DNA of 64,000 bases, taken from NCBI GenBank assembly GCA_000004985.1, contig GG738845.1, one strand, 5' to 3'. Made by a program: the position numbers and the translations under genes. The notes below the pieces were generated by a model. That model did not search any database, was not told the DNA's origin, and saw only the letters and a program-made list of their open reading frames with translations. Shown here piece after piece: positions 1,015 to 51,112 of the stretch (position 1 is its first letter; each line of letters starts with the position of its first letter). The stretch is from Naegleria gruberi. Its lineage: Eukaryota.

Positions 1015-1155
1015 TATTATTATATACACTTAATTTAAAAACTGATTAAATATTCCATAATTCTATCTCCTTTCAAAAACAATCACAGAATATTGTCATA
1101 ATTTCCGTTATCAGTTGGTAAGTTGATAGAAAAACAGTCATAAATTTAAAGTACT

Positions 1156-1164
1156 TTGGCGCCA
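1156..1164. promoter_or_regulatory. E2F-like GC element TTTGGCGCC, about 45 nt upstream of the PACRG ATG
   Basis: tactTTGGCGCCataaaat in an otherwise more than 75% A+T intergenic region. Confidence 0.35.
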
Positions 1165-1207
1165 TAAAATTTACAGCATTAAATCAAAACAAAAAAAAAT
1201 ACAAAAC

Positions 1208-2296
1208 ATGGACACCAATAATTTAGGCCAAGGTCCAACTGCAGATTTTAAAGGAGAATATGTTCATCCTGTTGTCTCTGCAAATAAGGGAACAGCATCA
1301 TCACTGTTGCTTGAAGAATACACCAAGACCCACATTTGTAAAAATCCTTTGAAAGGAGGAGGAAAACAATCCAGGCCCGATGCAACTTTTCTTCCAAAAT
1401 CAAGTGAATCTCCTTTTGGAAGTTTCCCAAATGAAATGAAGCCAAGAACAATGAAGACTCAAAGAATTCAATCATCGACAGAATCTTCCCTTGATTCAGG
1501 ATTGGTTGGTTCTAAAATGTTGTCAAGTAAAACTACCTTGGAAAAAACTGAAAAGGGAACTTTCATGTGGAGCTCTAAGAAAATTGGATCTGGAGGAGCC
1601 TCAAGCTCTTTAAGAGAAGGTAAAAAGCCAACACCTCCACCAAAACCTGTTGCTGGTGCAATGGAAAGAAGATCCATCCCAGAAACACAATTCAGAAAGT
1701 TTTACGAAAGAGGAGACTTACCAATCTCTATTAAACATGAGGGAACAAATGAAATCCATTGGAAAGTTAAAGCTGAAAAACTCGATTATCATCACTACCT
1801 TCCAATATTTTTTGATGGGTTAAGAGAAAAAGAAGAGCCATATAGATTTTTAGCAGTGCAAGGAACATTTGATTTGTTAAAATATGGTAAAGATAAGATT
1901 GTGAACTGCATACCACAACTAATTATTCCAATCAAGAGTAAGTAATATTACTGTAATATTCCATATTCTTTTACCCTAAAATAAGCTGCTTTAAATACAA
2001 GGGATCCTGAAATTATATGTACAGTACTGAAAGTAATCCAACAATTAGTTTTATCAAATGAGAAAGTTGGTGAAGCCCTAGTTCCTTACTATAGACAAAT
2101 TCTTCCAATTTTCAATCTCTTCAAGACCAATAATATCAATCTTGGAGATGCCATTGAATATTCTCAAAGAAAGAGACTAAATATTGGTGATTTAATTGAA
2201 GAAACTCTTCAACTGTTAGAGCAAGAAGGAGGTGAAGATGCATTTATTAATATTAAATACATGATTCCAACCTATGAATCGAGCGTGCTCAATTAA
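1208..2296 (+). CDS. PACRG: Parkin co-regulated gene protein (PACRG) homolog; join(1208..1937,1986..2296)
   Basis: [45 protein letters not shown] and the C-terminal [12 protein letters not shown] are near-identical to animal PACRG. The 48-nt intron runs gtaagt...ataag. Stop is TAA at 2294-2296. Confidence 0.9.
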
Positions 2297-9844: not shown

Positions 9845-10079
9845 GATTGAATGGGAAAACTATCGTCATCAAGTTTCTTCGATTCTTGTTCAATTTGGTT
9901 TGATGACATTTTTTTAAAACCATGGAAGATTTTGCTTGGATCAAAAAGGTTCTCACCAAATAATCAAGTTCATAAGAAAAAATTGTCTCTTGTGTGAGTC
10001 TCTCTACAACAGAACATACGATCAACACGAATCATCACATCATCTTGTTTACCAATTTAATTTGTAATAATTTTTTGAA

Positions 10080-18307: not shown

Positions 18308-18877
18308 CTAGTAAACTCGAGTACCTGGTTTTACACCAAGTGTTTCCTTTGGTGCTAGTGGTGTAATTGTTTCAAAAGAAGAATCAGTGTTTTCCTCTGG
18401 TTTTTCTCTTGTTGCAAACATGATCATCCCATGAGATAGATGGTTAGCCATTGATTTTGGTTGAAGATTTTTCACTACTAAAACTTGTTGTCCAATAAAT
18501 AAATTATTTAATTCCTCAATATTATCTGTTGTGGATATGGAGGGATAATGAAGACGAATACCCGAAAGGATTTGCCTAAGATTTTCTTCTCCTATATCTA
18601 CTTTAAAACAAATTAATTTCTTTGATTTCTTAACAAATTGTGCTTCCATAATTTGTCCAACAACTATCTCAACCTTCATAAAGTCATCTATGGTAATTTC
18701 TGAAGACTTGCATTCATTTTCCGATTCAAGACTTTTTTCGTTAGAATTTTCAACTTGGTGATGAGAATTAAACTGATGAAATCCTCTTTTTGCAATATAA
18801 AAATATTTACTATTCCGACAGAAAGAACAATTAAAAGTTTTCCTTGATGATGGAGAAAATACTCTTCTCAGAAACAT
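18308..18877 (-). CDS. tRNA-binding (Myf/EMAP-II/Trbp111-like) domain protein with N-terminal presequence-like extension
   Basis: VGQIMEAQFVKKSKKLICFKVDIGEENLRQILSGIRLHY resembles the OB-fold tRNA-binding domain. Confidence 0.5.
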   Translation of the reverse strand: MFLRRVFSPSSRKTFNCSFCRNSKYFYIAKRGFHQFNSHHQVENSNEKSLESENECKSSEITIDDFMKVEIVVGQIMEAQFVKKSKKLICFKVDIGEENLRQILSGIRLHYPSISTTDNIEELNNLFIGQQVLVVKNLQPKSMANHLSHGMIMFATREKPEENTDSSFETITPLAPKETLGVKPGTRVY

Positions 18878-18905: not shown

Positions 18906-19592
18906 TTATAAAATTTCAATTATTTCAGAAACCTCATTAGGATCTAATACTTCAGTCACATCATCATCATCACTTGAAACATCATCTATTTCAACAGGTC
19001 TTAATGGAGTGGAATCAATATAAATTATATTATTTTTTCTGTGGGTAATAGGAGTGGTAAGATTAATGAAAGATTTCTCAGGTGTGTGATGTATTTCACT
19101 TTCGTCTACAAGANNNNNNNNNNNNNNNNNNNNNNNNNNNNNNNNNNNNNNNNNNNNNNNNNNNNNNNNNTCTTCATCACTATTCTCATTTCTATAAAAT
19201 CCATTCACTAGTTCGTTGTAGTCAATTTCAAAATCTTTCTTCTTGACAGTAACTACTTTGAAGGTCTTACTCTCTTTTTTATCAAAAACTTTGAGTGAAG
19301 TGAATCTTGACCTACACACAGGACAAAGATTGGAACGTTCCTTCCACAAACAAATACACTTGTTACAAAATTGGTGTTTACAATGATTTGGTACGGCCTT
19401 TGGATAGGAAACAGTAGATAAACATATTGTACAAACTTGTTCGCTATCATCACTTGAATTTTCAGTGTTGTGAGTTTCGGAAGAGGATGGTTTTTGTTTT
19501 TTTGTTTCCGTATCCAAAGTGTTATCTGACTTTCTTTTCAATGCTATGGTTTTAACAAGTCTTTTCCTTTTAATTGGTGATGGTGAGGTCAT
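18906..19592 (-). CDS. C3HC4 RING-finger protein (contains assembly gap 19114..19170)
   Basis: CTICLSTVSYPKAVPNHCKHQFCNKCICLWKERSNLCPVCRSRF. Acidic, SIM-like C-terminus (DDDDVTEVLDPNEVSEIIEIL). Confidence 0.6.
   Translation of the reverse strand: MTSPSPIKRKRLVKTIALKRKSDNTLDTETKKQKPSSSETHNTENSSDDSEQVCTICLSTVSYPKAVPNHCKHQFCNKCICLWKERSNLCPVCRSRFTSLKVFDKKESKTFKVVTVKKKDFEIDYNELVNGFYRNENSDEXXXXXXXXXXXXXXXXXXXXLVDESEIHHTPEKSFINLTTPITHRKNNIIYIDSTPLRPVEIDDVSSDDDDVTEVLDPNEVSEIIEIL
19114..19170. other. Assembly gap (N-run) inside the RING-finger CDS
   Basis: 57 consecutive n. Confidence 0.95.
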
Positions 19593-19700: not shown

Positions 19701-19710
19701 TTGGCGCCAA
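19701..19710. promoter_or_regulatory. Palindromic E2F-consensus-like element TTGGCGCCAA (TTTSGCGCSAAA class) upstream of the RING-finger gene
   Basis: aagTTGGCGCCAAAAtt about 110 nt upstream of the ATG at 19592 (minus strand). Confidence 0.4.
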
Positions 19711-19767
19711 AATTAAAAATAGTTTTTACAAAAAGTACCATGTATTTACATTTATTTACAAAGTTTT

Positions 19768-20760
19768 CTAAGGTAAGATCTTCTTGATCATCTCTTTTTG
19801 TTGATTATCTAAAAATCGAGGGAAGACTATGGCTGGTTTAATGATTAGGTCTCCTTTTTGATCTGGATTCTTGGAAAGTGGCATACCTTCTCCAGAAACA
19901 GTTTTAGAATATCCTGGGTTTACAATGTCATTAATAGGTATTCTTAGTGTCCTATCATCTAATGTTTTAACTTCTATTACAGTGCCTGAAAGTGCTTCTT
20001 TCAGGGATACATTAGGAGTGTAAATAAGATTATTTCCTTCCCTTTGAAAAGTATTATGAGGTTGTTCATCAATTTCGAATACTACATCTGCAGCAATAAT
20101 ACCTGGAGCTTGATCTCCCTCGTTTTCAAATCTTATTTTTGTTCCCTTCTTAAATCCTTTTTTGATTGGAAAAGTTAAAATCTTTGATTCTTTTCTTGTT
20201 GTTTGCCCATCTGGGTTTAGAACTTGTTTTGTAATCTTTATCCTCTTTGTTTTTCCTTTGTATAAATCCTCTAGGGAACAAACAACTTTTTGAACAACAT
20301 CTGGAGCCTTTCTTGGTCCTCTTTGTTGAGTACTCTTAAAGAATGATCCTGGTCCAAATCCAAAGGATGAAAATGAGTCATCACCATCATCAAATCCTCC
20401 ACTAAACATTGAATCGAAAGGGCTTCTTGCCCCAAAGAATTGTTTGAAAATATCTTCAGGGTTTGTAGCATGGAAAGTATAGGAACCTCCACCTCCACCA
20501 AATCCGGCACCACTTCCACTTGTTGGAATTCCTCCCTTTAGGCCTTCTTCCCCATATTGATCATAGATTGCTCTCTTATTACTGTCACTTAATATTTCAT
20601 AAGCTTCAGCAATTTCCTTAAATTTTTCTTCGGCCATTTGCTTGTTGTCAGGATTTCTATCGGGATGCCATTTTAATGCAAGTTTACGATAGGCAGATTT
20701 TAATTCCTTCTCATCGGCACTTCTAGAAACCCCAAGTATTGAGTAATAATCTTTTCCCAT
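19768..20760 (-). CDS. DNAJB: DnaJ/Hsp40 subfamily B chaperone
   Basis: J-domain [32 protein letters not shown], then a G/F-rich region and a C-terminal substrate-binding domain. Confidence 0.85.
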
Positions 20761-20979
20761 CTCTAATTCAAGACAGTAAATGTATGGTCGTTTTTTTTGA
20801 TGTTATTATTAAAAGAGCGCCAATATCTTGATGTTGTAAGTAGACGTGATGATTAAGAACTGTTTGAGCACTTTTTTTGTCTTTGTCATTCGGAATGATA
20901 GACGTTTTTAAAAAAAAATTTATTTTCAATTTTATTCCGAACCAAAAATTATTCCGATGCTATCGTGGAAACAAAATCC

Positions 20980-20993
20980 TTTACCCGCCAAAT
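20980..20993. promoter_or_regulatory. E2F-like variant TTTACCCGCCAAAT in the DnaJ/SCC2 bidirectional promoter (an AGAGCGCCAATA half-site also at 20814..20825)
   Basis: cctTTACCCGCCAAATc lies 45 nt upstream of the SCC2 ATG (21038); compare TTTCCCGCCAAA-type E2F sites. Confidence 0.25.
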
Positions 20994-21037: not shown

Positions 21038-24000
21038 ATGTCTTCAAATAATAATCGGATACCTTTATCAAACAATGGATCAAGATTTATTGATGCCTTT
21101 CTTCCTCCTTTTTGTGCCCAATTTTCTATTATCAACGAAATGCCTCCACTGACTGTCAAAGAACAACCAATATTCAAAAATATCGATCATCCATCCAAAG
21201 ACTTGTACACTTATAATTTATTACAATGTCCTCATCACAAAGAGGAAGTAATTAAATGGCTTGATACCAATGATGAAAATTTAGTTGAAGGACTTTATAA
21301 TGTTCTCACTTCAAAACCAAGAATGGATGATGAAATGTAAGTTTTCAGCAAAAGGAGTTATAAATTCTTTGCCAAGTATTTTAAACTCTAATGGTGGTAG
21401 TTTAGTACAACAAGATTTGAATAATAATAGTAAGAATTCAGTACTTTTGAGTTCACTCTTAAAATTCCAGGAAGATAAAGAAAATCGACCAATCAATCCT
21501 TCACCTGTATCATATGATTTATATAAGAAATCTTTACAAAAAGAAACACCAAAAGTTACTTCTAATACTACACCAATCAAGATTCGTAAAGCTAGAAGAA
21601 ATAAGAGTAAGTTTTCACTAAACATTCATTTAAAATCTTCTATTTTAGAATTAATTGATGAAGTTGAGACACAAGAAAAACCATCTTCAACAGTATCTAA
21701 TGGTCAACCTTCAAAACTAGTAATTAATGCAAAACTTGCTCCAAAAACAACAAGTGTCGAAAAACTTATAGGAGCACTTGATGAACTTTTTGCATGGAGT
21801 GACTTTAGACAAAGCGAAGATGAATTGGTGGAAGAAAAATTTCTTAAGGATGTAGAAGTTGAAATAGGCTTGGCTCATAAAAATAATTATTTGAAAGAAG
21901 TACCTACGGAAAAATTAATTAAATTGTTAAGTGTGCTAGAGAGTCAAGTTAATGTAGGATTAGAATTAGTTAAAGTAGTATCAGAAACTTCAAGAGAAGA
22001 ATTAGTAGAATCTTTAAAACAAGATAAGGATAGTATTAGTAAGGCTTCAAGATGTGCTATACTATCATTTACTGTTATGTCTGGTAGAGGCGTTTCTAAG
22101 GAAACTCTAAATGAAGAATGTTTTGAAACCATTCTTGATTTTACCAAAACAGTTTTGAGAAAATATATTTATCCTATTGTAGAATCAGAAGAAGCTCCAA
22201 AAAAGAAAACAAGTAGAAAATACAGTTGCAATTCAGAGATGATTCAATTGTGTAAAATTTTCAAAAAATTAGACAAAATTCTTAGGAAACAGTCTTTGAA
22301 AGACGAATTTATTTTAACAATATCAGATATCGTTGTTTCTACTTTCTTTGTAAATGGTATTGATGATATACAACTTGCATCATTGGGTGTTATTACAAAA
22401 GTAAGTTTATTATTATTGATTCACAGAGGTATTAATAATCACAAAAAATGTGTTAATAGATTTTCTCTTCTTATCCAGATCACAGAGAACAAATTCTTGG
22501 TGAGATAACAGTTTCTCTTTTAAGGCTTCCAGCCAACAAGAAGACTGACAGAAGGTTTAGAATACCAGAAACTTCAATTCATATCCAAATGTTCACATCT
22601 CTTATGCTTCAATTAATTCATTCATGCACTGATATCAAACGAAATGAAACTTCTGTAGCAAGAAAACTCATCTTTGATAATGTTGAAAATAATTCAGATG
22701 ATGATCAGGATGATGATATTATGAAGGACTCAACTCCTGAATCAGAAGACATTATTATTACTACATATGAACAAGCTGTTCGTTGTGCCACAACATTTTC
22801 AGAGTATTTCTTGGAAAGATGTACAAAATCAGAATCTGTGGATGGAGATAATAGACTAATTATTGAACATTTTGTGGAGGATTTACTGGTGGTTCTTCCA
22901 TTGCCATCATGGCCAGCAGCAGATCTTTTACTTCAAGCGTTAGCTAACATTCTTTGCAATAAGTATCTCTCTCAAAAAGATATTGCTGATAAGTATAGAC
23001 AATTGGCTTTAAAAATTTTGGGAAAACTTGCTGCTAGAATTAAAGAACTTGAATTTAAAAATTTACAGTTCATGAAGGACTACATGTTAACAATGGAATG
23101 CGTACAGGATAACAATGGTGAAACTAGTAATACTATGGAGTTACATACTACCAAATTGCAAGATGAGTTTAAAACTTTATTTGAGTTGGACGAAATTGAC
23201 AAGATGAAACTTTCGCTATTCACATATCTCAATATGAAGCAAAAAGATTATCCAATGATTTCTTATTCTAAACAGTTTACAATCGCTCAGTGGTTTTATG
23301 ATGAAAGAGAAATAGAAAAGAAAGCACCATTCTACAAAACTTTATTATTGAGAGATGATACTGATACTGTAAACACGTATGTAGTATTTTAAATTATCAT
23401 TTATTAATTCCAATCCAAAAGACCCCTACAAGATGTCGAGTCACAAAATTTATATATTAATATTCTTTGTAACAGAAATTCAAGTATCATTAACAAGTTT
23501 GACTTTGTCTTTGGCCAAATTATTTCAGAACTGAAGGATGACAAACCAAAAGTCCGCGCAGATGCTATCAAAGCTTTACAAACAGTTATTAATATGGATT
23601 CATCTGTATTAATGAAAAATTACGTACAACTTGGAATTCGTGAAAGAACTGTAGATGCATTCCCTTCAGTGAGAGAGTCTGTTATTGATTTAATAGGAAA
23701 TGCTATGATAACTCTGAAAAGATATGAAGATTTTTATATCAGAATAATATTAGATAGAGTCAAAGATACATCAAAGAGTGTTAGAAAGAAAAGTATTACA
23801 ATTCTGGGAGAACTTTGTTCCTTAATTACTGAAGATAATATGATTACAGAAATTTGTAAAACTTTAGCAAGTAGATTAAGCCATCAAAACAAGGAAGAAG
23901 ATAATATCAAGGAACTAGTTTTAAAAACCTTCACAAAGCTATGGTTTGATAAAAATACCACAGAAAAATTCAAGCTAAGTGGGCTTCAAATTGTGGATGT

Positions 24001-26377
24001 TATAGGAAAGCAAGCAATAGATTTTAAACAGTACAAAGATCATTGGCTCTATCAAATTATTAATGTAAGTTATCATCTTTAATACTAACTATATTTAAAC
24101 TTTATTAACAGTTGGCCAGTATGTCAAAAGATCACGAAAAAATTCAAACTTCTCTTAAAATGATAATTGAAACTCTTATACAACATGTAATCAAATTGGA
24201 TAGCGAAGAAAAAAAAGCTACATCGCCTAGCGAGTTATTCAATAGGTTTAATATTGTAACTTGTATGAGTGCTTTACATTTGATTTGTCTAGCTGATCAT
24301 TCTTTATTTCTTTCTCACTTTAGAAATATTTCTGGTAAGTCGCAGAAAATTTAACCATCTAATTATTCAACCCATTAGTATATATTAAATCTGAGAATCA
24401 ACTCCCTCTTGTTTATCATGCTGTATGCATAGTTGATAAGTTATCTCCTTATATTAACAAACCAGAGCAAAAATTTTGCGATGTTCTCCAAAAAGAATTA
24501 GTGAAATTAATATTTTCATGTCCAGGTGTTAAACAAGAAATAATAGAGGCGTGTGTCAGCTGTTTGTGTAATTTTTGCTCAAGAATCAAAAATACTCAAT
24601 ATTTATACACTGTTCTTAATAATATATTCTCTTTCATAACAGTGTCAGATACTAATCTGCAAAGCGAAGCAAGAACTTGCAGATTGCTTTATGCAGCAGC
24701 ACTATTTTGCAGATATCACGACTTTGATAGTACTTCAGATATGATTGAAAATATTACCAATCAAAACTTGAAACCTGGAAAAATTGTACAAACTATTTAC
24801 AGCATCACTATTGGCTGGATTTCCAAATCGTCTGAATTGATCAAGCAAAAAGCAGCCAGATCTTTAGGATTCTTATTGATAAGACAACCTAAACTTTTCT
24901 TGGTAAAGCAAACTCAAACTGCTATTTCACAAAGCTTGTCCAGTGAAAATAGGGATTTTGTCTATGAAGTTGTCTTGATGTTTAAAGACTTTTTACTGGC
25001 TGAAGAATCAAAGCTAAGCTCCGCTACCCACCAAGAGAATATGGATGCCGGTGTAACATCAACTTTAATGTTAAGCTACATTGATGCATTGATTGCTCTT
25101 TTAGACGATACTACTGATTATATTAGGCATGCCACTCTAGAAGTTTTAGAATTAACTGTACAACAAGGATTAACTATTCCTTCAAAGATAATGAAATATA
25201 CATTGGCAATGGAATCAGATCCTAATAGTGATGTTAGAGAAAAAGCCCATACTATTAATTTATACCTTAAAGACAGATTTTTAAAAATGTTTACCAGTGA
25301 AGCCAGACATAGTTTTTCAAAGGCATTTATGCATTTGAATAATATTAATGAGAAATCTGTTATAGTGAAAGGAATAATTGATGGTAAAAGTGCCTTCCAT
25401 GGTATTTATTCATTGTGCNNNNNNNNNNNNNNNNNNNNNNNNNNNNNNNNNNNNNNNNNNNNNNNNNNNNNNNNNNNNNNNNNNNNNNNNNNNNNNNNNN
25501 NNNNNNNNNNNNNNNNNNNNNNNNNNNNNNNNNNNNNNNNNNNNNNNNNNNNNNNNNNNNNNNNNNNNNNNNNNNNNNNNNNNNNNNNNNNNNNNNNNNN
25601 NNNNNNNNNNNNNNNNNNNNNNNNNNNNNNNNNNNNNNNNNNNNNNNNNNNNNNNNNNNNNNNNNNNNNNNNNNNNNTACCTTTATGATAGAAGCTCTAA
25701 TTCATTTACCATATAAGAGCTTGTATGAAGTTGCCGAAATTGTAACTACTCTTGGTGAAAAATTGGATATGTTAGGAGATAGTGTGAAAGAAGAGCTTAA
25801 AAATCAAATCAAAAATGAGGAAAAGGAGTTGAAATATGTCAGAAAATACATTACACTATCATGCTGTTTATGTTTCTTGATTCAATTTAAAAACACACTC
25901 CAAGTTAGATATAATTTGACAAATTCAAAGATGGAAGAGTATTCTGCAGATTCAAAGTCCTTCATCAAAAAGATTATTACATCCTCCTCTATCAGGGATG
26001 TTTCTCTTGTGGAATTTAATTTAATAATTCCTAAATTAGTTAAAACTATCTCAAGTCAAGACTATGAAGATGAAACAATAGCTGAATTGTATCAATGGTC
26101 AAAAAAAATTATCAAGAGCCACATGCACGATGGTTTTAATGTTACAGTGGGAAAAGCAAAAAGAGGAAAAAGAAAAACTTCTACAACCAAAAAAACCACC
26201 AAAAAGAAACCAGCACCAAAAAAGAGGAAGAAGGCTGAGGAAGAGGAAGAATATTCTGGAGAAGATACTGAAGAAGACAATCCACCAAATGAGGAAGAAG
26301 AGAAAACACCCCACGAAAGTGCCTCTGAAGAGGAAGTTGAACCAATACAGACCAGGAAAAGAACAAAGAGAAAATAA
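21038..26377 (+). CDS. NIPBL: Sister-chromatid cohesion protein 2 / Nipped-B-like (SCC2/NIPBL) cohesin loader, multi-exon
   Basis: HEAT-repeat hallmarks: KVRADAIKALQTVINMDSSVLMKNYVQLGIRERTVDAFPSVRESVIDLIGN, SVRKKSITILGELCS and TFTKLWFDK. The C-terminus is K/E-rich. Seven same-strand ORF-track ORFs are joined through proposed introns 21337..21376, 22405..22478, 23377..23475, 24065..24111 and 24335..24378. An unresolved junction falls in gap 25419..25677. The first two introns are tentative. Confidence 0.7.
25419..25677. other. Assembly gap (N-run) inside the SCC2/NIPBL gene
   Basis: 259 consecutive n. Confidence 0.95.
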
Positions 26378-32523: not shown

Positions 32524-35500
32524 TCATTCATTCCCTCTCTTGTTTTCAGANNNNNNNNNNNNNNNNNNNNNNNNNNNNNNNNNNNNNNNNNNNNNNNNNN
32601 TCAATAACTTGCATATGAACTTCCAATACGGACATGCTTGATTCAAGGTTTCTAAGTTTTGTTTTACATCTTCCACTTTAATTAATACATCTTCCTTAAT
32701 TGTCGATGAAGAATTATCAAGTATTTCACTGTAATATTCTTGTTTAGTATCCACCTGCTCCTGTAATAGGTTAATATTTTTTTCAAAAGTTAATATCTGT
32801 TCCTGAGTATTGTCCTTCCATTCAGAGAGACCATTAAGGATCTTCTTTTGAATAATGTTTTCCTCTTTCATCATTGCTTTGAGACGAGTTATTTCCTCCT
32901 CCATGGTAGCAACATTATTGCCAATTATTGAAATACTCATTTCTTGAGTCTCTATCGAGGCTGTTAATATTTTGAAAGAGTTGATTTGTTCATTCAATTT
33001 TTCGAATTCCTCTTTAAAATTCATAATGGTACTACATATCATACTAACTTGTGTAATTGGCTTAATATCTTCCCTAATCTGGGGTAATATTAATTGTTCA
33101 AGATGAACCATAAAATCTTGCAGATTAGAAATATTTTCATTCAATATCTTGAAACAAGGTAGTGAAATAATATTATTTTCCAATTCATTATTTTGATTCT
33201 CAGTATTTTCGATTATATTTCTTTGTAAAAAATCCTCTAATCCAATTATTTTTTCATTAAGATAATTTTTACATTCTTGTAAAACCTTATTAACGTTTTC
33301 ATCAAGAAATGATATCCTTTCAATATTTTCTTTGGTAGAGGTCGAATAAGCCAAATTAAATTCATTTTGATTTGTCTTGAGAAGTGAAATGTCCACTTTA
33401 AGAGCACCAAAATCCTTGTTTAAAACCTCATTACAATCTTCTATCAGTTTTAACCTATCTTCCACAAGTTCGGACAGGGAGTTATATTCTATAATTTTTC
33501 GATTGGTAAAAGAGTTTATCTCAGAATCAATAATTTTCCTTAAACTGGAATAGGAAGAATCTATTTGACTGTTTTGAGAGTCAATAGAGGATGAAAGGGT
33601 TTTTTCCATGGCTATTTGTACCATTTTTTGTTTTGATATTGCTTCTATTACTTCACTGTGCTGGTTCTTGTATTCTTTTAAATGGTTAAAAAGTTCGGAA
33701 GAAAGAGATGAATAATTTTGATTGGATTCTAATTTCTGTTGACATATAGTCAAATCATGGACTCTGGAAACGAGATTATCATAATTTAATAAATTCTCTT
33801 GAATTTTTTGCTTAACAATCACCATGGAATCATTAAATCCTTGCTTCCACAGATCCAATGTTTCGAATGTGACTGCGTAATCTTCAACTTTAGCTTTGAC
33901 ATTCGAATGTAAATTCGTTAATTGTTTAATTTCCTCCATTAAGGTTGTAGCGCCACTTTCTGATATTTCAATTTTTGTTTGTATATGTGATAATTGATCA
34001 TTAAAACATTGTTGAATACTAGTAAGTGATTTTTCAATATTGCCCACTTTCACAGAAAGATCTTTAAGTGCTGATTCATTTGAATGGACATTACCAGTTA
34101 AGGTAATTTGATTGCTATCCAAGTATCTTAATTGCTTGTCTATTTCCTCGTTTCTAAATATTATTGTTTGAACAGAATCTTTGAAATACCTATTTTGGGT
34201 TTCAATCTCAACAATTTTCTGTTCAAGATTTTGTATCAGTATTTTGCTATCATTTCTAGAACTCTCCAAATTAAGAATCGAAGACTCTATACACTTATTA
34301 GAATCATTTTGATATTTCATGTTCATCTGAATTTCTTTTGATATTTCATTTCTTAAGTTATCTAAACTAGCTTCAAAAGATCCAATTTTTGAAAAAAGAT
34401 TTTCAATAACGTTGTTCGAATATTTTCCCTTGTCATCATTCTTGAGTATCTCTGTTATTTGATTTTTTAAATCAGATACTCTAATATCAATAGATTCAGT
34501 AAAATTAGTCAACCTCATGTTAATGTGGTCAAAGCTATCCCCAGCACTCTTGTAAAATGATTCATATTTTGTATGAATTGTATCTATCTGTGTTGAAAAT
34601 ATGTCGTGAATGGATTTTGACTGTTCAATTTGGTTCACTTCATTTTGAAGAGTTGTGTCTTTCTCTGTGAAATATACTCTCAAATCAGATAAATCTTCAT
34701 TAAGCTTTGATTGGTTTTGAGATATGGATTGTTGCTCGTTTCTTATATTTTCAATCATCAAAAATGCTTCTGATTTTATATTATTCAGTTCCAAATTGTA
34801 TTGAATAATTTTTTCATTTAGTTCTACCAGATCTTTTTCATTGTTTTTTCTCTGCTCTACATCTGTTAAATGGGATGATACATTTTCAAGCAAGTCGGAT
34901 AATTTTTTAATATCACTCAACTCATCTACTCTTTTCATTTCAAAATGATCTAATTTTTCAATTGTTTCTTCTTTAAATTGTTGGAGGGAGAAAATCTGGT
35001 CCTTTAAATATGAATATTCTTCCTGTCTCTCCTCAAATTTACTCTCTATAATATTTTGTTCGATATGCAACCCATGTATATCTTCAGAAAACATCAGGTT
35101 GGATTTAATAATTGATTCTATTGCTTTTCTAGAGTCTTCTTCTGTTAGTTGCTTCTTAAATTGAATTTCATTCAGTGTCCTCTCCATGATGTGGAATTGC
35201 TGTTCAAAGTTAGAGGATAAACTTTCATTATTAGAATTTTGGACTAAACTTTCCATTCTGCTTTTCAAGTCCTTCAACTCCCTTTCCGTTCTTGTTTGGA
35301 ATTCCTTTATCTTTTTTTCAGAGTTCTTCTCTATAGAATTACATCTTTCAAGTATATTACTAGTATTTTCCAATTGATGTACCATATTATTGGTGAATTC
35401 TTTTGTCTTACTTTCCAAATACTGTTTCATTTTTTCTAAATCTTGAATGGATGATTCAGATTTAGAGTCATTCGTTTTTGCTTCCATTCTAGGTTTGAGC

Positions 35501-36750
35501 TTTAAATCATTCACATCTTTTTTAATTTCACCAATACTAGATGTCAAAAATGTAAATTGCTCCTCTGTTTCTCTAAGAATTTTATCCACAGCCTCCTCCA
35601 CAGAGACATCAATTTTGTGTTGAATATTTCTTTCTTTCATTTCTGAAAGAACAACATCTGCCTTTTTGGTTATTTTTTCCATTTCATTACGAACTATTTC
35701 CTTCAAAAGCATCTCTTTAGATTGGGATGGTATATCCTCATTAGTTTTCATATTCATTTTCAATTGCTTTTGAACCTCCACTTTCACCAATTCATGAATA
35801 GAATTATCGATAGAATTTTCTCTAGTTTTTAAATCTTCAAATTGTTTTTTGGTTTCTTGACATTTTTGAACCAGGTCAACAACAATTCTCTCCAATCTGT
35901 TGGAAAGAATCCATTTTTTGAAAATCTTTTCACTCATCTGGTTAAAAATCGATTTGAATGTTTGAAATTGGTTTGATAAACTATCAATTGTTACCTCTCC
36001 GATTGGAATTTCAGGAATTTTTTCAACATTTAGTTGAGGCATTTCATTAAGCCAATCATGAATATATTGCTTCTCATTTTTAGGATGATTTTCTTTCATT
36101 AGTCTTTCCAGCTCCTCCATTCTTATGAACTTGATAGTAGCGCTTTCCTCTTCGCTATCAGAAAATAAATAATCTGTATTTGCTATTGAAGCAAACTTTT
36201 GTTTAGCATCTGAAACAGGCTGCCCATGTAAGAACCTCAAAAATCGTTCAGCAGCTAGAGTTTCTCTATGGTCCAGATCTTGTTTTGAAACAACCTCCCA
36301 AGATTCACATACTAATGGTTCAGATCCTTTCAATCTAGGCGAATCCACAAAGCTACCATTCTTTGGGCTTCTTGGACTTCCTTTGGGTGATTCTAAGAAT
36401 GTGGGTGTTAAGTTTTTAAGGTCAATATCAAGAAGTTTTTTCTTTGATTCTTGAGGGAGAGGAGATGAGGATCTTTTACCAGTGTGCTGTATTTGATGAA
36501 GATTTGAGATTGTTGCAGTGGAAGGATATAATATTGGCGAGGAGCTTCTAGAAGCTTTTAGAGATTGATTATTTGTTGGTGATATTGCTCTTTTGGGAGT
36601 TGTATTGGTAGGAGTAGCATTTGAAATCGTTGCTTGCCTTGGAATAACTACCAAATGATCTAGTGATGATCCGTAGTATGGATTGAGTGTGTCATCAACC
36701 CTATTTATTGAAGAGAGAGTCTTTGCTTTCTTTTGGTTAGATTTCACCAT
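32524..36750 (-). CDS. Giant coiled-coil protein (about 1400 aa; contains gap 32551..32600)
   Basis: Single long ORF. Ser/Pro-rich N-terminus with SPRSPK motifs, then more than 1000 aa of heptad-rich E/K/L/Q/N sequence. Confidence 0.5.
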   Translation of the reverse strand: MVKSNQKKAKTLSSINRVDDTLNPYYGSSLDHLVVIPRQATISNATPTNTTPKRAISPTNNQSLKASRSSSPILYPSTATISNLHQIQHTGKRSSSPLPQESKKKLLDIDLKNLTPTFLESPKGSPRSPKNGSFVDSPRLKGSEPLVCESWEVVSKQDLDHRETLAAERFLRFLHGQPVSDAKQKFASIANTDYLFSDSEEESATIKFIRMEELERLMKENHPKNEKQYIHDWLNEMPQLNVEKIPEIPIGEVTIDSLSNQFQTFKSIFNQMSEKIFKKWILSNRLERIVVDLVQKCQETKKQFEDLKTRENSIDNSIHELVKVEVQKQLKMNMKTNEDIPSQSKEMLLKEIVRNEMEKITKKADVVLSEMKERNIQHKIDVSVEEAVDKILRETEEQFTFLTSSIGEIKKDVNDLKLKPRMEAKTNDSKSESSIQDLEKMKQYLESKTKEFTNNMVHQLENTSNILERCNSIEKNSEKKIKEFQTRTERELKDLKSRMESLVQNSNNESLSSNFEQQFHIMERTLNEIQFKKQLTEEDSRKAIESIIKSNLMFSEDIHGLHIEQNIIESKFEERQEEYSYLKDQIFSLQQFKEETIEKLDHFEMKRVDELSDIKKLSDLLENVSSHLTDVEQRKNNEKDLVELNEKIIQYNLELNNIKSEAFLMIENIRNEQQSISQNQSKLNEDLSDLRVYFTEKDTTLQNEVNQIEQSKSIHDIFSTQIDTIHTKYESFYKSAGDSFDHINMRLTNFTESIDIRVSDLKNQITEILKNDDKGKYSNNVIENLFSKIGSFEASLDNLRNEISKEIQMNMKYQNDSNKCIESSILNLESSRNDSKILIQNLEQKIVEIETQNRYFKDSVQTIIFRNEEIDKQLRYLDSNQITLTGNVHSNESALKDLSVKVGNIEKSLTSIQQCFNDQLSHIQTKIEISESGATTLMEEIKQLTNLHSNVKAKVEDYAVTFETLDLWKQGFNDSMVIVKQKIQENLLNYDNLVSRVHDLTICQQKLESNQNYSSLSSELFNHLKEYKNQHSEVIEAISKQKMVQIAMEKTLSSSIDSQNSQIDSSYSSLRKIIDSEINSFTNRKIIEYNSLSELVEDRLKLIEDCNEVLNKDFGALKVDISLLKTNQNEFNLAYSTSTKENIERISFLDENVNKVLQECKNYLNEKIIGLEDFLQRNIIENTENQNNELENNIISLPCFKILNENISNLQDFMVHLEQLILPQIREDIKPITQVSMICSTIMNFKEEFEKLNEQINSFKILTASIETQEMSISIIGNNVATMEEEITRLKAMMKEENIIQKKILNGLSEWKDNTQEQILTFEKNINLLQEQVDTKQEYYSEILDNSSSTIKEDVLIKVEDVKQNLETLNQACPYWKFICKLLXXXXXXXXXXXXXXXXXSENKRGNE
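32551..32600. other. Assembly gap (N-run) inside the coiled-coil gene
   Basis: 50 consecutive n. Confidence 0.95.
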
Positions 36751-36810: not shown

Positions 36811-36820
36811 TTTTGGCGCC
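36811..36820. promoter_or_regulatory. E2F-like element TTTTGGCGCC in the bidirectional promoter between the coiled-coil gene (-) and the LRR gene (+)
   Basis: ttattTTTTGGCGCCttct, about 60 nt from ATG 36750 and about 90 nt from ATG 36912. Confidence 0.35.
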
Positions 36821-36911: not shown

Positions 36912-39164
36912 ATGAATATGAACACACAAGATAGTACTCCTATAAGAAAACGTTCGAAAAAGAGAGTTGCAAAACAATCTTCCAAACATTACCGTGAAGA
37001 GAGTCAACTTCCCGAACAACAATGTGTAACACCAACAAAAGAACATACAGCTAATACTTCCTTCTCCTCTCCAGGATCAATTTCTCTCAGTGCACTGAAA
37101 ATAACAACTCCATCACAAAATAATGTAAATTCCTCTTTAAATGATTATGAAAATCACAGGAATGATCTATCAAGCATGTCTGATAGTTCCTTCCTGACAA
37201 TGTCTTCCTCTTTTAATATGCCACTCATCATGATGGAAGATGATCAAGAAAATGTCACAAATTCTTCAATTTTATTGTCACAACATACTTCCTTGACACA
37301 AGATTTTGGGAATGTTGCATTATCAAATAATGATAGACTATTTCCCTGCAATATTACTGGCACAATTACAGATAATTTTGAACAAGAATGTAATGATGCT
37401 CCCACCTCTCCAATTATTACTTTTCCTTCTAATCAATATTCTAACCTAGATATTGATGAAAAGGAAATTTTTGAGGAATATTTTGAAAAGTTGACTGAAA
37501 TAGAGACTAGATCTAGATCAAATAGTTATAATAGTAACAAACCATCAAAAAAAAGAAAAACATATACCTTGAGTAGACTAAAAGTACTACCTGTGGCCAT
37601 CAAACATGTAATTTTAAGCTTTCTACCATATCTACCACTAAAATTTTATTTAGGGCTAGCCTTTCAATCTCCTCAAAACAAGTATTTATTTGCGACAAGT
37701 ATTATTCAAAACTCTTTTGGAAGGTATTCGGATAATCCTCTCAGATCCCACATTTTCATTCCATTTCTGAATGTTGAACTTGTGTTGTCAAAAGAGCCAT
37801 TTTCCGAAAAGTCAAATAATGACATACCCCAAGATATTGCTAGATCTCTATCCAAGGAAGATTTTGAATCTATTTGCATTTTATACTCCCCCATTTTCAA
37901 TCATGTAAGGAATTTAAAAATCACCACAATAATAGAAAATGATTCGAGAATTACTACACCAATCACAAGTGCAGAAATGCAAACTTTTATGAACGTGTTA
38001 CTGGAGTACAAATCAAAATATTCACTGTTCAGAACCTGCTTAGATTTTTCATCATCACCCTTGGTTAAAAAGTATTTGGACATTAATATAATATCTGAAA
38101 GAAAAATTTCCTTATTTTCCAGATTAGAAACGTTATATTTTAATGTAGAAGCACCAGAAAGTATATTCGAGTCGGATTCTCAATTGTTAGATCCTTTTAT
38201 TTTCCAACCAATCCCTTCTTTTGATAATATCACCACACACATTAACCTAAACAAGAATTTCATACCTGTTCCCATTATTCTCCCACATCTAAAAAGATTT
38301 CCAAAGCTGAAATGCATCCACACTTGTTTGTACTTTCCAGACACTATCCAATCCAATGGTATCGATTTCACTTCAATGCAATTGATTCAATCATTGAAGA
38401 TTTGTAATATTTCAACGAAACAACTAGAAATTTTACTTTCCTCAACAAGCCAAGTTAAAAATCTTGATTTAAGAGGTTTAACTTATTCCCCTCTTGACAT
38501 GTTCATGAAAACCAAGAACATTACTCAAAAACTTCAACATTTATCTATTCAATTTTCAGAGAATGATATTGTGAGTGATATAGAGTTTTCTAATTTTCTT
38601 AAATCAAATTGTATTCCATCACTCAGGTGTTTGGAAATATTTGAACCAGAAAATAGAAGTAGAGCTCGCCAAGAATGTACTCTTGATGGAATCCGTCACA
38701 ATACCTCTATTACAAAGCTTTCCCTTGTTTTCTTCTTACATTTGGGTGCAAAAGCTGCAGAAAACCTATCCAATTCCCGTATTAATTCGTTAACTGTTGC
38801 AAACTCGTTTAGGAATGCAACACACTTCTCTGCCTTTATGGAGGTTTTGTCCAATAATTCTGTCATTAAGAGATTGCACATATCAACATTTTTCTCATCC
38901 AGATTAGCATTTGAAAACTTTTTAAAATCCAATAAGATTTGTGAAAAATTTATTGGAGAATTTGATGACAAGTCAAAACTTTTGGTCTTAGATATTAATT
39001 GCCTTGAAGAATTGAAAACAAATGTAAATCTCAAAGTGCTCAAACTTTTGAATTTTACCTTTGATGTTACAGATGAGGAGATTGAACGAGTTCTAAATAA
39101 TGAAATTCCACAAATCGATGTAACAATTTGTAGAAAGGCATATGTATCCAGCTTTTCACAATAA
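36912..39164 (+). CDS. Leucine-rich-repeat (RNI-like) protein, possibly F-box-like
   Basis: 750-aa ORF. Acidic, Ser-rich N-terminus, then LRR-like segments (LEILLSSTSQVKNLDLRGLTYSPL, LQHLSIQF, LRCLEIF). Confidence 0.4.
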   Translation: MNMNTQDSTPIRKRSKKRVAKQSSKHYREESQLPEQQCVTPTKEHTANTSFSSPGSISLSALKITTPSQNNVNSSLNDYENHRNDLSSMSDSSFLTMSSSFNMPLIMMEDDQENVTNSSILLSQHTSLTQDFGNVALSNNDRLFPCNITGTITDNFEQECNDAPTSPIITFPSNQYSNLDIDEKEIFEEYFEKLTEIETRSRSNSYNSNKPSKKRKTYTLSRLKVLPVAIKHVILSFLPYLPLKFYLGLAFQSPQNKYLFATSIIQNSFGRYSDNPLRSHIFIPFLNVELVLSKEPFSEKSNNDIPQDIARSLSKEDFESICILYSPIFNHVRNLKITTIIENDSRITTPITSAEMQTFMNVLLEYKSKYSLFRTCLDFSSSPLVKKYLDINIISERKISLFSRLETLYFNVEAPESIFESDSQLLDPFIFQPIPSFDNITTHINLNKNFIPVPIILPHLKRFPKLKCIHTCLYFPDTIQSNGIDFTSMQLIQSLKICNISTKQLEILLSSTSQVKNLDLRGLTYSPLDMFMKTKNITQKLQHLSIQFSENDIVSDIEFSNFLKSNCIPSLRCLEIFEPENRSRARQECTLDGIRHNTSITKLSLVFFLHLGAKAAENLSNSRINSLTVANSFRNATHFSAFMEVLSNNSVIKRLHISTFFSSRLAFENFLKSNKICEKFIGEFDDKSKLLVLDINCLEELKTNVNLKVLKLLNFTFDVTDEEIERVLNNEIPQIDVTICRKAYVSSFSQ

Positions 39165-49934: not shown

Positions 49935-51080
49935 TTACTGTCTTTTATCTAAATTTTCAAGTACTTGATTGACTTCTTTTGTTTGTTGATGATTTTCACC
50001 GAGAACGTAAACAAATATTTCTCTAGCCTTTTCCAGATATTCTCTAGCCTTAGCAAAGTCTCCCAAAAATAATTTGAAAAACCCGTTTACAACATACACT
50101 TTCCCTGTTTCCACATGATTTTCTCCAAGATGTTCTGAATCTGTTCTCAAAATATGTTCTAACATTTTTTCAGCATCTCCAACTTTGTCTTCATCTAAAT
50201 CCTTTACAGAATTTTTAAATTGAATTCTCGCTTGTCTTGTTGAAACTTCAAGTGAACCATCCTCATTATCATTTGTTTGGGGTTTACCAACTAAAATAAT
50301 TGACGACAATTGGTCATACCAAATATCAACAACTTTTTTCATAAATGAAACACCTTTTTCAGATTTTCCTTGCATTGAAACAAATACATTGCCTAAATTG
50401 AAATAAGCAAAACTTGTAATTACATCATGAGTTCCATGCTCTAAAGCTAAATAATATACACTTGCTGCCATATTTTCAATGGCTTCATTAACCTTTCCTT
50501 GCTGAACATACAGTAAACCAAAATGTTGATGAAGTTCAGCTCTCAAGTTTGGTGGGCATTTTTCCTTGTTTTTCATACAGGTCCAATTTGCTATAGACAA
50601 ATATTCCTCTGCTTGTTTGAATTGATTTAATTGTTGGCTTGCCTTGGAAAGGAGGAAGTATGCTTCAACTTGTTGCAAAGCATCTTTTCCATACAGTTTT
50701 TGAATATATTCCAAAGCTTTTAAACCTCCGATAGTAGCCCTCTTAAAATCGCCCTCCTGCAAAATCATTGAACTCTCACTTAAGGCAACCTCGATAATCG
50801 CTTCCAAACTTAATTCAAGTTGTTTCATATGTTCTTGTTTTTGAGTTAGAGATGTTCCAGTAAAAGTTCCTTGTTGAGGAGAATTGAATTGAGTAATTAG
50901 GTTATTAAATTTTTGCTCTAATTGAATCCAGTTTAACCCTGATCGTTTATCCCTTCCTGTTGTTGTTGCTCCGTAACTTCCATTATCATTACTATTCAAT
51001 AATTGCTGGTTAGAGTTATTTCCTTCTGTCAGCCTGCTCAAATCGAGCGTTCCAATTTTCAGTGAAGGACTTGTAGACAT
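49935..51080 (-). CDS. TPR-like repeat protein (381 aa)
   Basis: Several TPR-like helical pairs (YFNLGNVFVSMQGKSEKGVSFMKKVV; GDFAKAREYLEKAREIF). Confidence 0.4.
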   Translation of the reverse strand: MSTSPSLKIGTLDLSRLTEGNNSNQQLLNSNDNGSYGATTTGRDKRSGLNWIQLEQKFNNLITQFNSPQQGTFTGTSLTQKQEHMKQLELSLEAIIEVALSESSMILQEGDFKRATIGGLKALEYIQKLYGKDALQQVEAYFLLSKASQQLNQFKQAEEYLSIANWTCMKNKEKCPPNLRAELHQHFGLLYVQQGKVNEAIENMAASVYYLALEHGTHDVITSFAYFNLGNVFVSMQGKSEKGVSFMKKVVDIWYDQLSSIILVGKPQTNDNEDGSLEVSTRQARIQFKNSVKDLDEDKVGDAEKMLEHILRTDSEHLGENHVETGKVYVVNGFFKLFLGDFAKAREYLEKAREIFVYVLGENHQQTKEVNQVLENLDKRQ

Positions 51081-51102: not shown

Positions 51103-51112
51103 TGGCGGGAAA
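51103..51112. promoter_or_regulatory. E2F-like element TGGCGGGAAA about 25 nt upstream of the TPR gene ATG (51080, minus)
   Basis: tttaTGGCGGGAAAgtc resembles the classical TTTGGCGGGAAA E2F site. Confidence 0.3.

What the first reader, a model, noticed from the sequence alone, without database searches (positions are those of the whole stretch)
19701..19710. Recurrent GC-rich E2F-type element (TTTGGCGCC / TTGGCGCCAA) in AT-rich promoters
Perfect or near-perfect TTGGCGCC cores occur at 1156..1164 (PACRG promoter), 19701..19710 (RING-finger promoter; the full palindrome TTGGCGCCAAAA matches the metazoan/plant E2F-DP consensus TTTSGCGCSAAA) and 36811..36820 (coiled-coil/LRR bidirectional promoter). 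Related GCGGGAAA / CCGCCAAA variants occur at 51103..51112 (TPR gene) and 20980..20993 (DnaJ-SCC2 bidirectional promoter). At about 30% GC, a given 8-mer with six G/C is expected about 0.2 times in 64 kb on both strands. Three are observed, all in the roughly 10% of the window that is intergenic, and all within 130 nt of a start codon. This suggests a conserved cell-cycle (E2F/DP-like) cis-regulatory code. One of its targets would be the cohesin loader, a classic E2F target in other eukaryotes.
Basis: partly seen in the sequence, partly recalled or inferred. Interest (0 to 1): 0.55.

Follow-up and report, generated by a model that had tools for sequence, protein, structure and literature searches.

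The report
Conserved E2F-type promoter box in Naegleria
A short GC-rich DNA word that matches the binding site of the E2F/DP cell-cycle regulators recurs in a few Naegleria gruberi promoters and is conserved in related species, notably in front of flagellum genes, so it is a testable candidate for a switch that no one has yet identified.

Summary
TTGGCGCC occurs at 1156, 19701/19703 (palindrome) and 36813, against 0.17 expected. All three GGCGCC in the window are these sites. All lie in the 9.3% of the window outside ORFs, 45-110 nt from a start codon. GGCGCC(AA) is the top over-represented non-coding 6-, 7- and 8-mer.

The window is Naegleria gruberi. The box is under selection. Upstream of PACRG, TTGGCGC is kept at the same place in N. 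lovaniensis and Willaertia magna, in otherwise unalignable promoters. E2F-like variants are also kept upstream of an axonemal ZMYND12/TAX-1-like gene and a class-B DnaJ.

N. gruberi encodes E2F, DP, DEL and RB with canonical RRxYD recognition helices, so E2F-family binding is the best candidate. It is not shown.

The cell-cycle reading is only partly supported. Two box-bearing genes are axonemal, and PACRG is differentiation-specific. One is the cohesin loader SCC2. Rad51, a survivin-like gene and SAS-4 lack the box. The RING, SCC2 and coiled-coil sites could not be footprinted.

Verdict: a real conserved cis-element of E2F type, a new member of a known kind. It may link to Naegleria's flagellar gene induction, whose regulators are unknown.

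The parts
1155..1163 (+). TTTGGCGCC box, 45 nt upstream of the PACRG start codon (1208)
   Evidence: Conserved as TTGGCGCT in N. lovaniensis (L003 9961) and as TTTGGCGCC in Willaertia magna (L004 9961). GCCGCCAAAA sits at the same place in an ENA heterolobosean (L005 ~450). TTGGCGC is the only G+C-rich 7-mer shared by the three 150-nt promoters (1 of 5000 shuffles). The chance that both orthologues carry it is 2e-5.
1166..1174 (+). AAAATTTAC, a second conserved block 1-3 nt downstream of the PACRG box (possibly a TATA-like or start-site element)
   Evidence: It is the only 9-mer shared by the N. gruberi, N. lovaniensis and Willaertia PACRG promoters. It is not enriched elsewhere in the window.
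1208..2296 (+). PACRG gene (first exons), an axonemal inner-junction protein
   Evidence: Pfam ParcG, E = 6e-34. Best hit is N. gruberi NAEGRDRAFT_82851. PACRG1 is named among differentiation-specific genes (PMC10802493).
19701..19712 (.). Perfect palindrome TTGGCGCCAA(AA), the finding's own coordinates. It lies 109 nt upstream of the RING-finger gene start (19592, - strand) and 57 nt past the DnaJ stop.
   Evidence: Conservation could not be tested: no relatives were found in the metagenome scan, and the DnaJ orthologues of other species are not adjacent to a RING gene.
18906..19592 (-). RING-finger protein gene (228 aa), presumed target of the 19701 box
   Evidence: Pfam zf-RING_2 and zf-C3HC4. 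PDB hits cover only generic RING domains. Function unknown.
20817..20824 (-). ATTGGCGC box, 57 nt upstream of the DnaJ start (20760, - strand), in the DnaJ|SCC2 divergent promoter
   Evidence: E2F-like boxes are also found upstream of the DnaJ orthologues: TTTTCGCGCTAAAA in N. fowleri (L009 9855), TTTGCGCCAAAAG in Willaertia (L011 9854) and GCGGCAAAA in a JGI contig (L013 ~3275). Their positions differ (-57, about -146, about -147, about -80).
19768..20760 (-). Class-B DnaJ/Hsp40 gene
   Evidence: Pfam DnaJ + DnaJ_C. It is 100% identical to an N. gruberi predicted protein. Best PDB matches are the axonemal radial-spoke proteins DNAJB13/RSP16 (E = 6e-86), but it keeps the HPD motif and a G/F region like DNAJB1, so its subtype is unresolved.
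20984..20992 (+). CCCGCCAAA (= TTTGGCGGG on the other strand), 46 nt upstream of the SCC2/Nipped-B start (21038)
   Evidence: Gene identity rests on Nipped-B_C and Cohesin_HEAT matches. Conservation not testable.
36812..36820 (.). TTTGGCGCC in the divergent promoter between 32524-36750 (-) and 36912-39164 (+). Read on the - strand it is GGCGCCAAAAAA and points to the coiled-coil gene, 63 nt from that gene's start.
   Evidence: Both flanking proteins lack Pfam and PDB matches. Conservation not tested.
51104..51112 (-). TTTCCCGCC box, about 24-32 nt upstream of the start (51080, - strand) of the ZMYND12/TAX-1-like TPR gene, inside a 50-nt intergenic spacer
   Evidence: TCCGCCAAAAAAAA in N. lovaniensis (L008 9989) and AGCGCCAAAAAAA in N. 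fowleri (L006 9990) abut the start codon; there is no box in Willaertia. CGCCA is the only G+C-containing 5-mer shared by the three Naegleria promoters.
49935..51080 (-). TPR protein of the ZMYND12/TAX-1 family (associated with the axonemal inner dynein arm)
   Evidence: PDB sequence search: TAX-1 (9y6s, 9e5c) E = 4e-39; ZMYND12 from axoneme structures (9d2f, 8j07, 9fqr) E = 2e-27 to 2e-23; Chlamydomonas 'subunit of axonemal inner dynein' (8glv) E = 8e-26.

Best explanation
The TTTGGCGCC / TTTCCCGCC / CCCGCCAAA boxes are functional promoter-proximal cis-regulatory elements of Naegleria gruberi, kept by selection across Naegleria species and in Willaertia. The most likely reader is the E2F family of winged-helix factors that N. 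gruberi encodes: an E2F-DP heterodimer, or the two-domain DEL/E2F7-8 type, with RB as a possible co-regulator. A dimer would sit on the pseudo-palindromic GGCGCC core a few tens of bases upstream of the short 5' UTR. It would switch on or repress a small regulon, about one promoter in eight to ten in this sample. [quoted passage not shown]

Shown: the sites exist, are enriched, are promoter-proximal and are conserved at orthologous promoters; E2F, DP, DEL and RB exist with canonical DNA-recognition helices; two targets are axonemal. Inferred: that E2F-family proteins bind these sites, and that they drive differentiation-linked rather than, or as well as, cell-cycle-linked expression.
For: Enrichment.

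Conservation at PACRG holds across two genera plus one unnamed heterolobosean, with unalignable flanks. It also holds at the ZMYND12-like gene in three Naegleria species and at DnaJ in four taxa. A kinesin gene next to the ZMYND12-like gene keeps CCCGCCATT in N. fowleri and N. lovaniensis.

Specificity: in about 147 kb of extra Naegleria and Willaertia sequence, intergenic TTGGCGC occurs only at the orthologous focal promoters.

Motif match: the sites fit the TTT[GC][GC]CGC expression used for E2F (as in PMC9371601).

Factor: NgruE2F carries KRRIYDITNVLEGIGLIEK and NgruDP carries RRRVYDALNVLMA. Pfam finds E2F_TDP at 1e-28 and 2e-18, plus E2F_CC-MB and DP dimerisation domains.

Targets: PACRG and the ZMYND12/TAX-1 family protein are axonemal. 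PACRG1 is differentiation-specific. Basal-body and flagellar genes are transcribed de novo during differentiation.

Precedent: E2F/DP/Rb act in ciliary-apparatus regeneration in Stentor and with MCIDAS in vertebrate multiciliated cells.
Against: There is no binding or expression evidence for the sites themselves.

Only about 60 N. gruberi genes and about 90 genes from relatives were sampled, and the extra loci were chosen through box-bearing genes.

Three of the six box-bearing promoters (RING, SCC2, coiled-coil/LRR) could not be tested for conservation, and their gene functions, apart from SCC2, are unknown.

The differentiation-specific centriole gene SAS-4/CPAP (41949-44639) has no box in its 117-nt promoter, so the box cannot be the sole differentiation element.

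The Willaertia ZMYND12-like promoter and the Acrasis kona PACRG promoter lack it.

Outside the focal promoters, the loose pattern TTSSCGS is not significantly enriched in intergenic DNA: 5 of 20 sites against about 15% of the sequence (counted).

Another factor that prefers a GGCGCC core cannot be excluded.
Confidence: 0.5

Rival explanations
1. This is a classical G1/S cell-cycle E2F regulon. The boxes would mark genes switched on for DNA replication and chromosome segregation in proliferating amoebae. The axonemal genes would carry them either incidentally or for RB/DREAM-type repression.
For: E2F, DP, DEL and RB are all present. SCC2/Nipped-B carries CCCGCCAAA 46 nt from its start. E2F-RB control of G1/S is inferred to be ancestral in eukaryotes (PMC4862756). 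A repressive use on flagellar genes in cycling cells would fit the fact that they are silent in amoebae.
Against: Two identifiable targets are axonemal, and PACRG is differentiation-specific rather than mitosis-associated. Rad51 (N. fowleri L009) and the BIR/survivin-like gene (40487-40996) have no box. No CHR-type TTYGAA element accompanies any of the boxes (read directly). The SCC2 site is unconfirmed by conservation.
Confidence: 0.2
2. The box is a conserved cis-element read by a different DNA-binding protein that prefers a CGCC/GGCGCC core followed by an A-tract. Its resemblance to E2F sites would be coincidental.
For: Across orthologues only the core (S)CGC(C/T) plus a downstream A/T-rich run is invariant: GGCGCC, GGCGCT, GCCGCC, CCCGCC, TCCGCC, AGCGCC. 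That is looser than TTTSSCGC. No binding data exist.
Against: The three best sites match the E2F consensus perfectly, including the T-tract. One is the full palindrome TTGGCGCCAAAA, expected for a winged-helix heterodimer. The E2F and DP recognition helices are unchanged from animals. I know of no other factor family in this genome for which a GGCGCC preference has been reported (own knowledge; not tested).
Confidence: 0.22
3. The boxes are chance occurrences or compositional artefacts with no function.
For: Small sample; short motif. The loose variants (TTSSCGS) also occur inside ORFs.
Against: 0 of 100 shuffles reach the observed count. The word ranks first in the unbiased non-coding k-mer scan. 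It is conserved at the same position in orthologous promoters of different genera, with a joint chance of 2e-5.
Confidence: 0.03

Closest known systems
Animal and plant E2F-DP binding sites (TTTSSCGC, e.g. TTTCGCGCCAAA-type palindromes) in promoter-proximal positions
   Same: The core sequence is identical, including the perfect palindrome TTGGCGCCAA. The sites lie just upstream of the transcribed region. The cognate E2F, DP, E2F7/8-type and RB proteins are present with unchanged RRxYD recognition helices.
   Different: The identifiable targets here are mainly axonemal genes, not replication or mitosis genes. Binding is untested, and no CHR/CDE partner element is present.
Vertebrate multiciliated-cell programme (E2F4/5-DP1 with MCIDAS/GEMC1)
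   Same: E2F-family factors are used in non-dividing cells to induce genes for building centrioles and cilia (PMC12183034, PMC5839779). Naegleria likewise builds basal bodies and flagella de novo after leaving the cell cycle.
   Different: In vertebrates the direct E2F targets are chiefly centriole-biogenesis and regulator genes. Here the centriole gene SAS-4 lacks the box, while structural axonemal genes carry it. Geminin-family cofactors were not looked for in Naegleria.
Stentor coeruleus E2F/DP/Rb module in oral-apparatus regeneration
   Same: This is a unicellular eukaryote in which E2F, DP and Rb are induced early, predicted TTT[GC][GC]CGC targets are co-expressed with centriole genes, and E2F RNAi impairs completion of a ciliary structure (PMC9371601).
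   Different: It is a different supergroup. The Stentor targets listed include cyclins and kinases and were not shown to be axonemal structural genes. No conservation analysis was done there, and no expression or knock-down data exist here.
RFX X-box / FOXJ1 ciliary regulon of animals and choanoflagellates
   Same: Functionally analogous if the flagellar reading is right: a short promoter-proximal palindromic box shared by ciliary genes.
   Different: The sequence and the factor family are unrelated. RFX and FOXJ1 are reported absent from Naegleria (PMC12183034, PMC10530576).

Membership tests
E2F/DP cis-element | Sequence matches the consensus TTTSSCGC (ideally the palindromic TTTSGCGCSAAA) | tested here: met
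   TTTGGCGC at 1155, 19704 (-) and 36812; TTTCCCGC at 51105 (-); TTGGCGCCAAAA at 19701-19712.
E2F/DP cis-element | The genome encodes E2F and DP winged-helix proteins with the RRxYD DNA-recognition motif | tested here: met
   The NgruE2F, NgruDP, NgruDEL and NgruRB sequences are in the Medina et al. 2016 source data. Pfam finds E2F_TDP, E2F_CC-MB and DP domains. RRIYD and RRVYD are present.
E2F/DP cis-element | Promoter-proximal location and enrichment over background | tested here: met
   All perfect sites lie within 110 nt of a start codon, in the 9.3% of the window outside ORFs. Transcription start sites are unknown.
E2F/DP cis-element | Conservation of the site in orthologous promoters | tested here: met
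   Met for PACRG, the ZMYND12-like gene and DnaJ. Could not be tested for the RING, SCC2 and coiled-coil sites.
E2F/DP cis-element | Physical occupancy by E2F/DP and dependence of transcription on the site | not testable with these tools
   Needs EMSA, DAP-seq, ChIP and reporter mutagenesis.
Cell-cycle (G1/S) E2F regulon | Targets are replication, repair or chromosome-cycle genes | tested here: inconclusive
   SCC2 carries a box. Rad51 (N. fowleri) and the survivin-like BIR gene do not. Two targets are axonemal. The sample is too small for a regulon-level test.
DREAM-type CDE/CHR module | A CHR element (TTYGAA) a few bases downstream of the E2F/CDE site | tested here: not met
   No TTYGAA lies within 20 nt of any of the six boxes (read directly).
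E2F-driven ciliogenesis programme (multiciliated-cell or Stentor type) | E2F boxes on centriole or cilium genes induced in non-dividing cells | tested here: inconclusive
   Present and conserved on the axonemal PACRG and ZMYND12-like genes. Absent from the SAS-4/CPAP promoter, although both PACRG1 and Sas-4 are differentiation-specific. The expression timing of NgE2F, NgDP and NgDEL was not available.

The most novel reading that the evidence does not exclude
The E2F-type box is the cis-element, and E2F/DP (or the DEL type) the factor, that coordinates the rapid transcriptional induction of flagellar genes during the Naegleria amoeba-to-flagellate differentiation. No regulator of that programme is known, and RFX, FOXJ1 and XAP5 are absent. 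Together with vertebrate multiciliated cells and Stentor, this would point to an ancient link between E2F and cilium building, possibly dating to the ancestral eukaryote, rather than an animal-specific co-option.
Probability: 0.25. Interest if true: 0.75.

Novelty: new member of a known kind. Interest (0 to 1): 0.52.

Why it matters
Naegleria builds basal bodies and flagella from nothing within about an hour, by transcribing hundreds of genes. Transcriptional control of this programme has been studied since the 1970s-80s. A 2025 review still states that the transcription factors are unknown, because RFX, FOXJ1 and XAP5 are missing (PMC12183034).

A short, exactly defined and phylogenetically conserved box in front of axonemal genes, matching a factor family that the genome encodes in single copies (one E2F, one DP, one DEL, one RB), makes that question directly testable. 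If the association with flagellar genes holds genome-wide, it would also bear on whether the role of E2F in multiciliogenesis is ancestral. If it does not hold, the result is still the first documented conserved promoter element of E2F type in a heterolobosean.

Tried and rejected
1. N. gruberi PACRG model P0001 was not on record for contig look-up. N. lovaniensis, N. fowleri, Willaertia and metagenome contigs were used instead.
2. I spent the last homologue search on DnaJ, hoping that neighbours would bring the RING and SCC2 promoters of other species. The N. fowleri, Willaertia and JGI/ENA orthologues sit in a different neighbourhood (S17e - unknown gene - DnaJ - 2-oxoacid dehydrogenase), so those two sites stay unfootprinted.
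3. Two metagenome scans, with the RING protein and with PACRG, returned no confirmed relatives.
4. Expression tables were not available. Fritz-Laylin & Cande 2010 and the journal version of Kennard et al. 2025 are not held, and the preprint has no supplementary text. Only the main-text statement on PACRG1 and Sas-4 could be used.
5. PDB sequence searches with the 1408-aa coiled-coil protein, the 750-aa LRR-like protein and a concatenate of ten further orphan ORFs gave nothing. No more ciliary genes could be recognised in the window.
6. Whether the DnaJ is the radial-spoke DNAJB13/RSP16 orthologue or a general DNAJB1-type chaperone could not be settled.
7. I considered AAAATTTAC as a general start-site element and rejected it, because it is not enriched.
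8. A canonical heat-shock element search found none.
9. The Acrasis kona PACRG promoter has no box, so conservation does not extend to all Heterolobosea.

Full report
**1. The observation**

TTGGCGCC occurs at 1156-1163, at 19701-19708 / 19703-19710 (a perfect palindrome TTGGCGCCAA followed by AA) and at 36813-36820. That is four strand-matches against 0.17 expected from dinucleotide-preserving shuffles, and no shuffle reaches four. These three places are the only GGCGCC hexamers in the 64-kb window. The window has 27-36% G+C.

I found one further site, GCGCCAAT at 20817-20824.

I masked all plausible ORF segments. This leaves 5,970 nt (9.3%) of non-ORF sequence. Four of the five TTGGCGC sites fall in it (binomial p about 3e-4).

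I also ran an unbiased scan of all 6-, 7- and 8-mers in the non-ORF segments against a second-order Markov model. GGCGCC, GGCGCCA and GGCGCCAA each rank first. The 8-mer is seen in 3 segments against 0.027 expected, p = 3e-6 for 3,960 words tested.

**2. Organism and genes**

The DnaJ ORF at 19768-20760 is 100% identical to a Naegleria gruberi predicted protein on a 1,555,553-bp scaffold. The PACRG hit NAEGRDRAFT_82851 is listed with the same longest-contig length. The window is N. gruberi.

Pfam and PDB sequence searches identify the box-bearing genes as follows:
- PACRG, starting at 1208 on the + strand.
- A RING-finger protein, 18906-19592 on the - strand.
- A class-B DnaJ, 19768-20760 on the - strand. 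It diverges from SCC2/Nipped-B, 21038-26377 on the + strand.
- An orphan 1408-aa coiled-coil protein, 32524-36750 on the - strand. It diverges from an orphan 750-aa protein, 36912-39164 on the + strand.
- A TPR protein, 49935-51080 on the - strand. It belongs to the ZMYND12/TAX-1 family found in axoneme cryo-EM structures of trypanosomes, mammals and Chlamydomonas, with E-values down to 4e-39.

The other roughly 40 promoters in the window belong to eIF3a, EMC4, RagA, a proteasome subunit, KRR1, ESF1, Sua5, Sec1, Thg1, a BIR protein, CPAP/SAS-4 and others. They have no such box.

**3. Conservation**

PACRG. Orthologous loci were fetched from N. lovaniensis (L003), Willaertia magna (L004) and an unnamed ENA heterolobosean (L005). 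Upstream of the start codon they read:
- N. gruberi: TTTGGCGCCATAAAATTTAC
- N. lovaniensis: GTTGGCGCTCAAAATTTAC
- Willaertia: TTTGGCGCCTAAAAAATTTAC
- L005: GCCGCCAAAATC...AAAATTACA

Each lies 30-50 nt from the start codon, in otherwise unalignable AT-rich sequence. Among the three 150-nt promoters, the only shared 7-mers are TTGGCGC and pieces of AAAATTTAC. Only 1 of 5,000 shuffles gives any shared G+C-rich 7-mer. The chance that both orthologues carry TTGGCGC is 2e-5.

ZMYND12-like gene. The boxes are TTTCCCGCCATAAAAAT in N. gruberi, TCCGCCAAAAAAAA in N. lovaniensis and AGCGCCAAAAAAA in N. fowleri, each abutting the start codon. Willaertia has none.

DnaJ. Orthologues in N. fowleri, Willaertia and a JGI contig each have an E2F-like box upstream: TTTTCGCGC, TTTGCGCCAAAA and TTTTGCCGC.

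Kinesin. A kinesin gene next to the ZMYND12-like gene keeps CCCGCCATT in both N. fowleri and N. lovaniensis.

Specificity. In the roughly 147 kb of extra sequence, intergenic TTGGCGC occurs only at these focal promoters.

Orientation. Read towards the gene, the common form is (TTT)SSCGCC followed by an A/T-rich run.

Limits:
- The Acrasis kona PACRG promoter has no box.
- The RING, SCC2 and coiled-coil sites could not be footprinted.
- The loose pattern TTSSCGS is not enriched in intergenic DNA once the focal promoters are set aside.

**4. The candidate factor**

The source data of Medina et al. 2016 (eLife, PMC4862756) contain one N. gruberi E2F, one DP, one DEL (E2F7/8-type, with two DNA-binding domains) and one RB.

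I ran the E2F and DP sequences against Pfam. E2F_TDP scores 1e-28 and 2e-18. E2F_CC-MB and DP dimerisation domains are also found.

The recognition helices read KRRIYDITNVLEGIGLIEK (E2F) and RRRVYDALNVLMA (DP). From my own knowledge these are the same RRxYD motifs that contact the CGCGCG core in the animal E2F4-DP2 structure.

Binding itself is inferred, not shown.

**5. What the regulon is**

Naegleria amoebae divide without centrioles or flagella. The basal-body and flagellar genes are transcribed de novo during the one-hour differentiation (PMC4819266). PACRG1 and Sas-4 are named as differentiation-specific in N. gruberi RNA-seq (PMC10802493).

Of the box-bearing genes that can be named, two are axonemal: PACRG and the ZMYND12/TAX-1-like protein. 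One is ambiguous: the DnaJ has its best PDB hits in the radial-spoke DNAJB13/RSP16, but it retains the HPD motif and a G/F region like DNAJB1. One is a chromosome-cycle gene, SCC2.

Typical proliferation genes that I could inspect lack the box: N. fowleri Rad51 and a survivin-like BIR gene. No CHR element accompanies the sites.

On the other side, the differentiation-specific centriole gene SAS-4/CPAP also lacks the box. The box therefore cannot be the only differentiation element. It may belong to the later axonemal wave rather than the early centriole wave, but that is speculation.

The kinesin with the conserved box could be either class. N. gruberi has five kinesin-14 paralogues, two mitosis-specific and three differentiation-specific.

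The sample is far too small for a regulon-level statement.

**6. Comparison with what is known**

E2F sites of exactly this sequence are textbook elements in animals and plants.

E2F4/5-DP1 with MCIDAS/GEMC1 drives centriole amplification and ciliogenesis regulators in vertebrate multiciliated cells.

In the ciliate Stentor, E2F, DP and Rb are induced early in oral-apparatus regeneration. Predicted TTT[GC][GC]CGC targets are co-expressed with centriole genes, and E2F RNAi impairs completion (PMC9371601).

For Naegleria, a 2025 review states that RFX, FOXJ1 and XAP5 are absent and that other, unknown factors must regulate cilia genes (PMC12183034).

My literature searches found no report of an E2F-type or any other conserved promoter element in Naegleria. 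The library searched is incomplete.

**7. Verdict**

The element is real, significantly enriched and evolutionarily conserved, and it is of E2F type. It is a new member of a known kind.

The cell-cycle interpretation is only partly supported. The data fit at least as well a use of the E2F box on differentiation-induced axonemal genes.

Confidence levels:
- That this is a functional cis-element: high, about 0.85.
- That E2F-family proteins read it: moderate, about 0.55-0.6.
- That it is a main switch of the flagellar programme: low to moderate, about 0.25.

Noticed in passing
window 32524-36750 (-): An orphan all-coiled-coil protein of about 1408 aa (roughly 160 kDa) has GGCGCCAAAAAA pointing at it. 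The Naegleria striated rootlet (rhizoplast) is at least 50% one 170-kDa protein made de novo in differentiation; the review gives no gene for it (PMC4819266). This is a size coincidence only and is speculative.
   Followed up: partly
window ~32540-32600: A run of N (assembly gap) lies inside the 3' end of the coiled-coil ORF; it appears as X residues in the translation.
   Followed up: no
window 41949-44639 (-), promoter 44640-44756: This is the CPAP/SAS-4 centriole gene (Tcp10_C repeats). Its 117-nt divergent promoter, shared with ESF1, has no E2F-like box, although Sas-4 is differentiation-specific.
   Followed up: yes
window 1166-1174; L003 ~9971-9979; L004 ~9973-9981: AAAATTTAC, immediately after the PACRG box, is conserved in three species but is not enriched elsewhere. 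It may be a gene-specific TATA-like or start-site element.
   Followed up: partly
window 12635, 17029, 32485 and others; upstream of DnaJ in window 20930-20960, L009, L011, L013: Words of the type TCTCGGA(A) / TTCCGA are the next most over-represented non-coding k-mers. TCGGAA-type words (TTCCGA on the other strand) recur upstream of the DnaJ orthologues. No canonical heat-shock element is present. The factor is unknown.
   Followed up: partly
window 19768-20760 versus L009, L011, L013: The N. gruberi DnaJ copy next to SCC2 is not syntenic with its orthologues in N. fowleri, Willaertia and a JGI contig. N. gruberi has a second, 84%-identical copy (P0231), listed with the same longest-contig length as the window's DnaJ (1,555,553 bp). 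This suggests a lineage-specific duplication and relocation.
   Followed up: partly
L001, L002 (ERR1078381 / ERZ929261): Contigs that encode a DnaJ protein identical to this N. gruberi one are present in a public metagenome assembly. Either N. gruberi was in the sample or the assembly is contaminated.
   Followed up: no
window 18308-18877 (-) and 18906-19592 (-): The RING ORF is followed after 28 nt by a tRNA-binding-domain ORF on the same strand. A gene call on L001 extends the RING product to 280 aa. These could be one spliced gene or two tightly packed genes.
   Followed up: no
L011 12381-12388 and 12614-12620 (Willaertia): TTCCCGCC lies 230 nt upstream of an IQ-motif protein gene, and TTTCCCGC lies at its start codon. 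These are unexamined possible further box-bearing genes.
   Followed up: no
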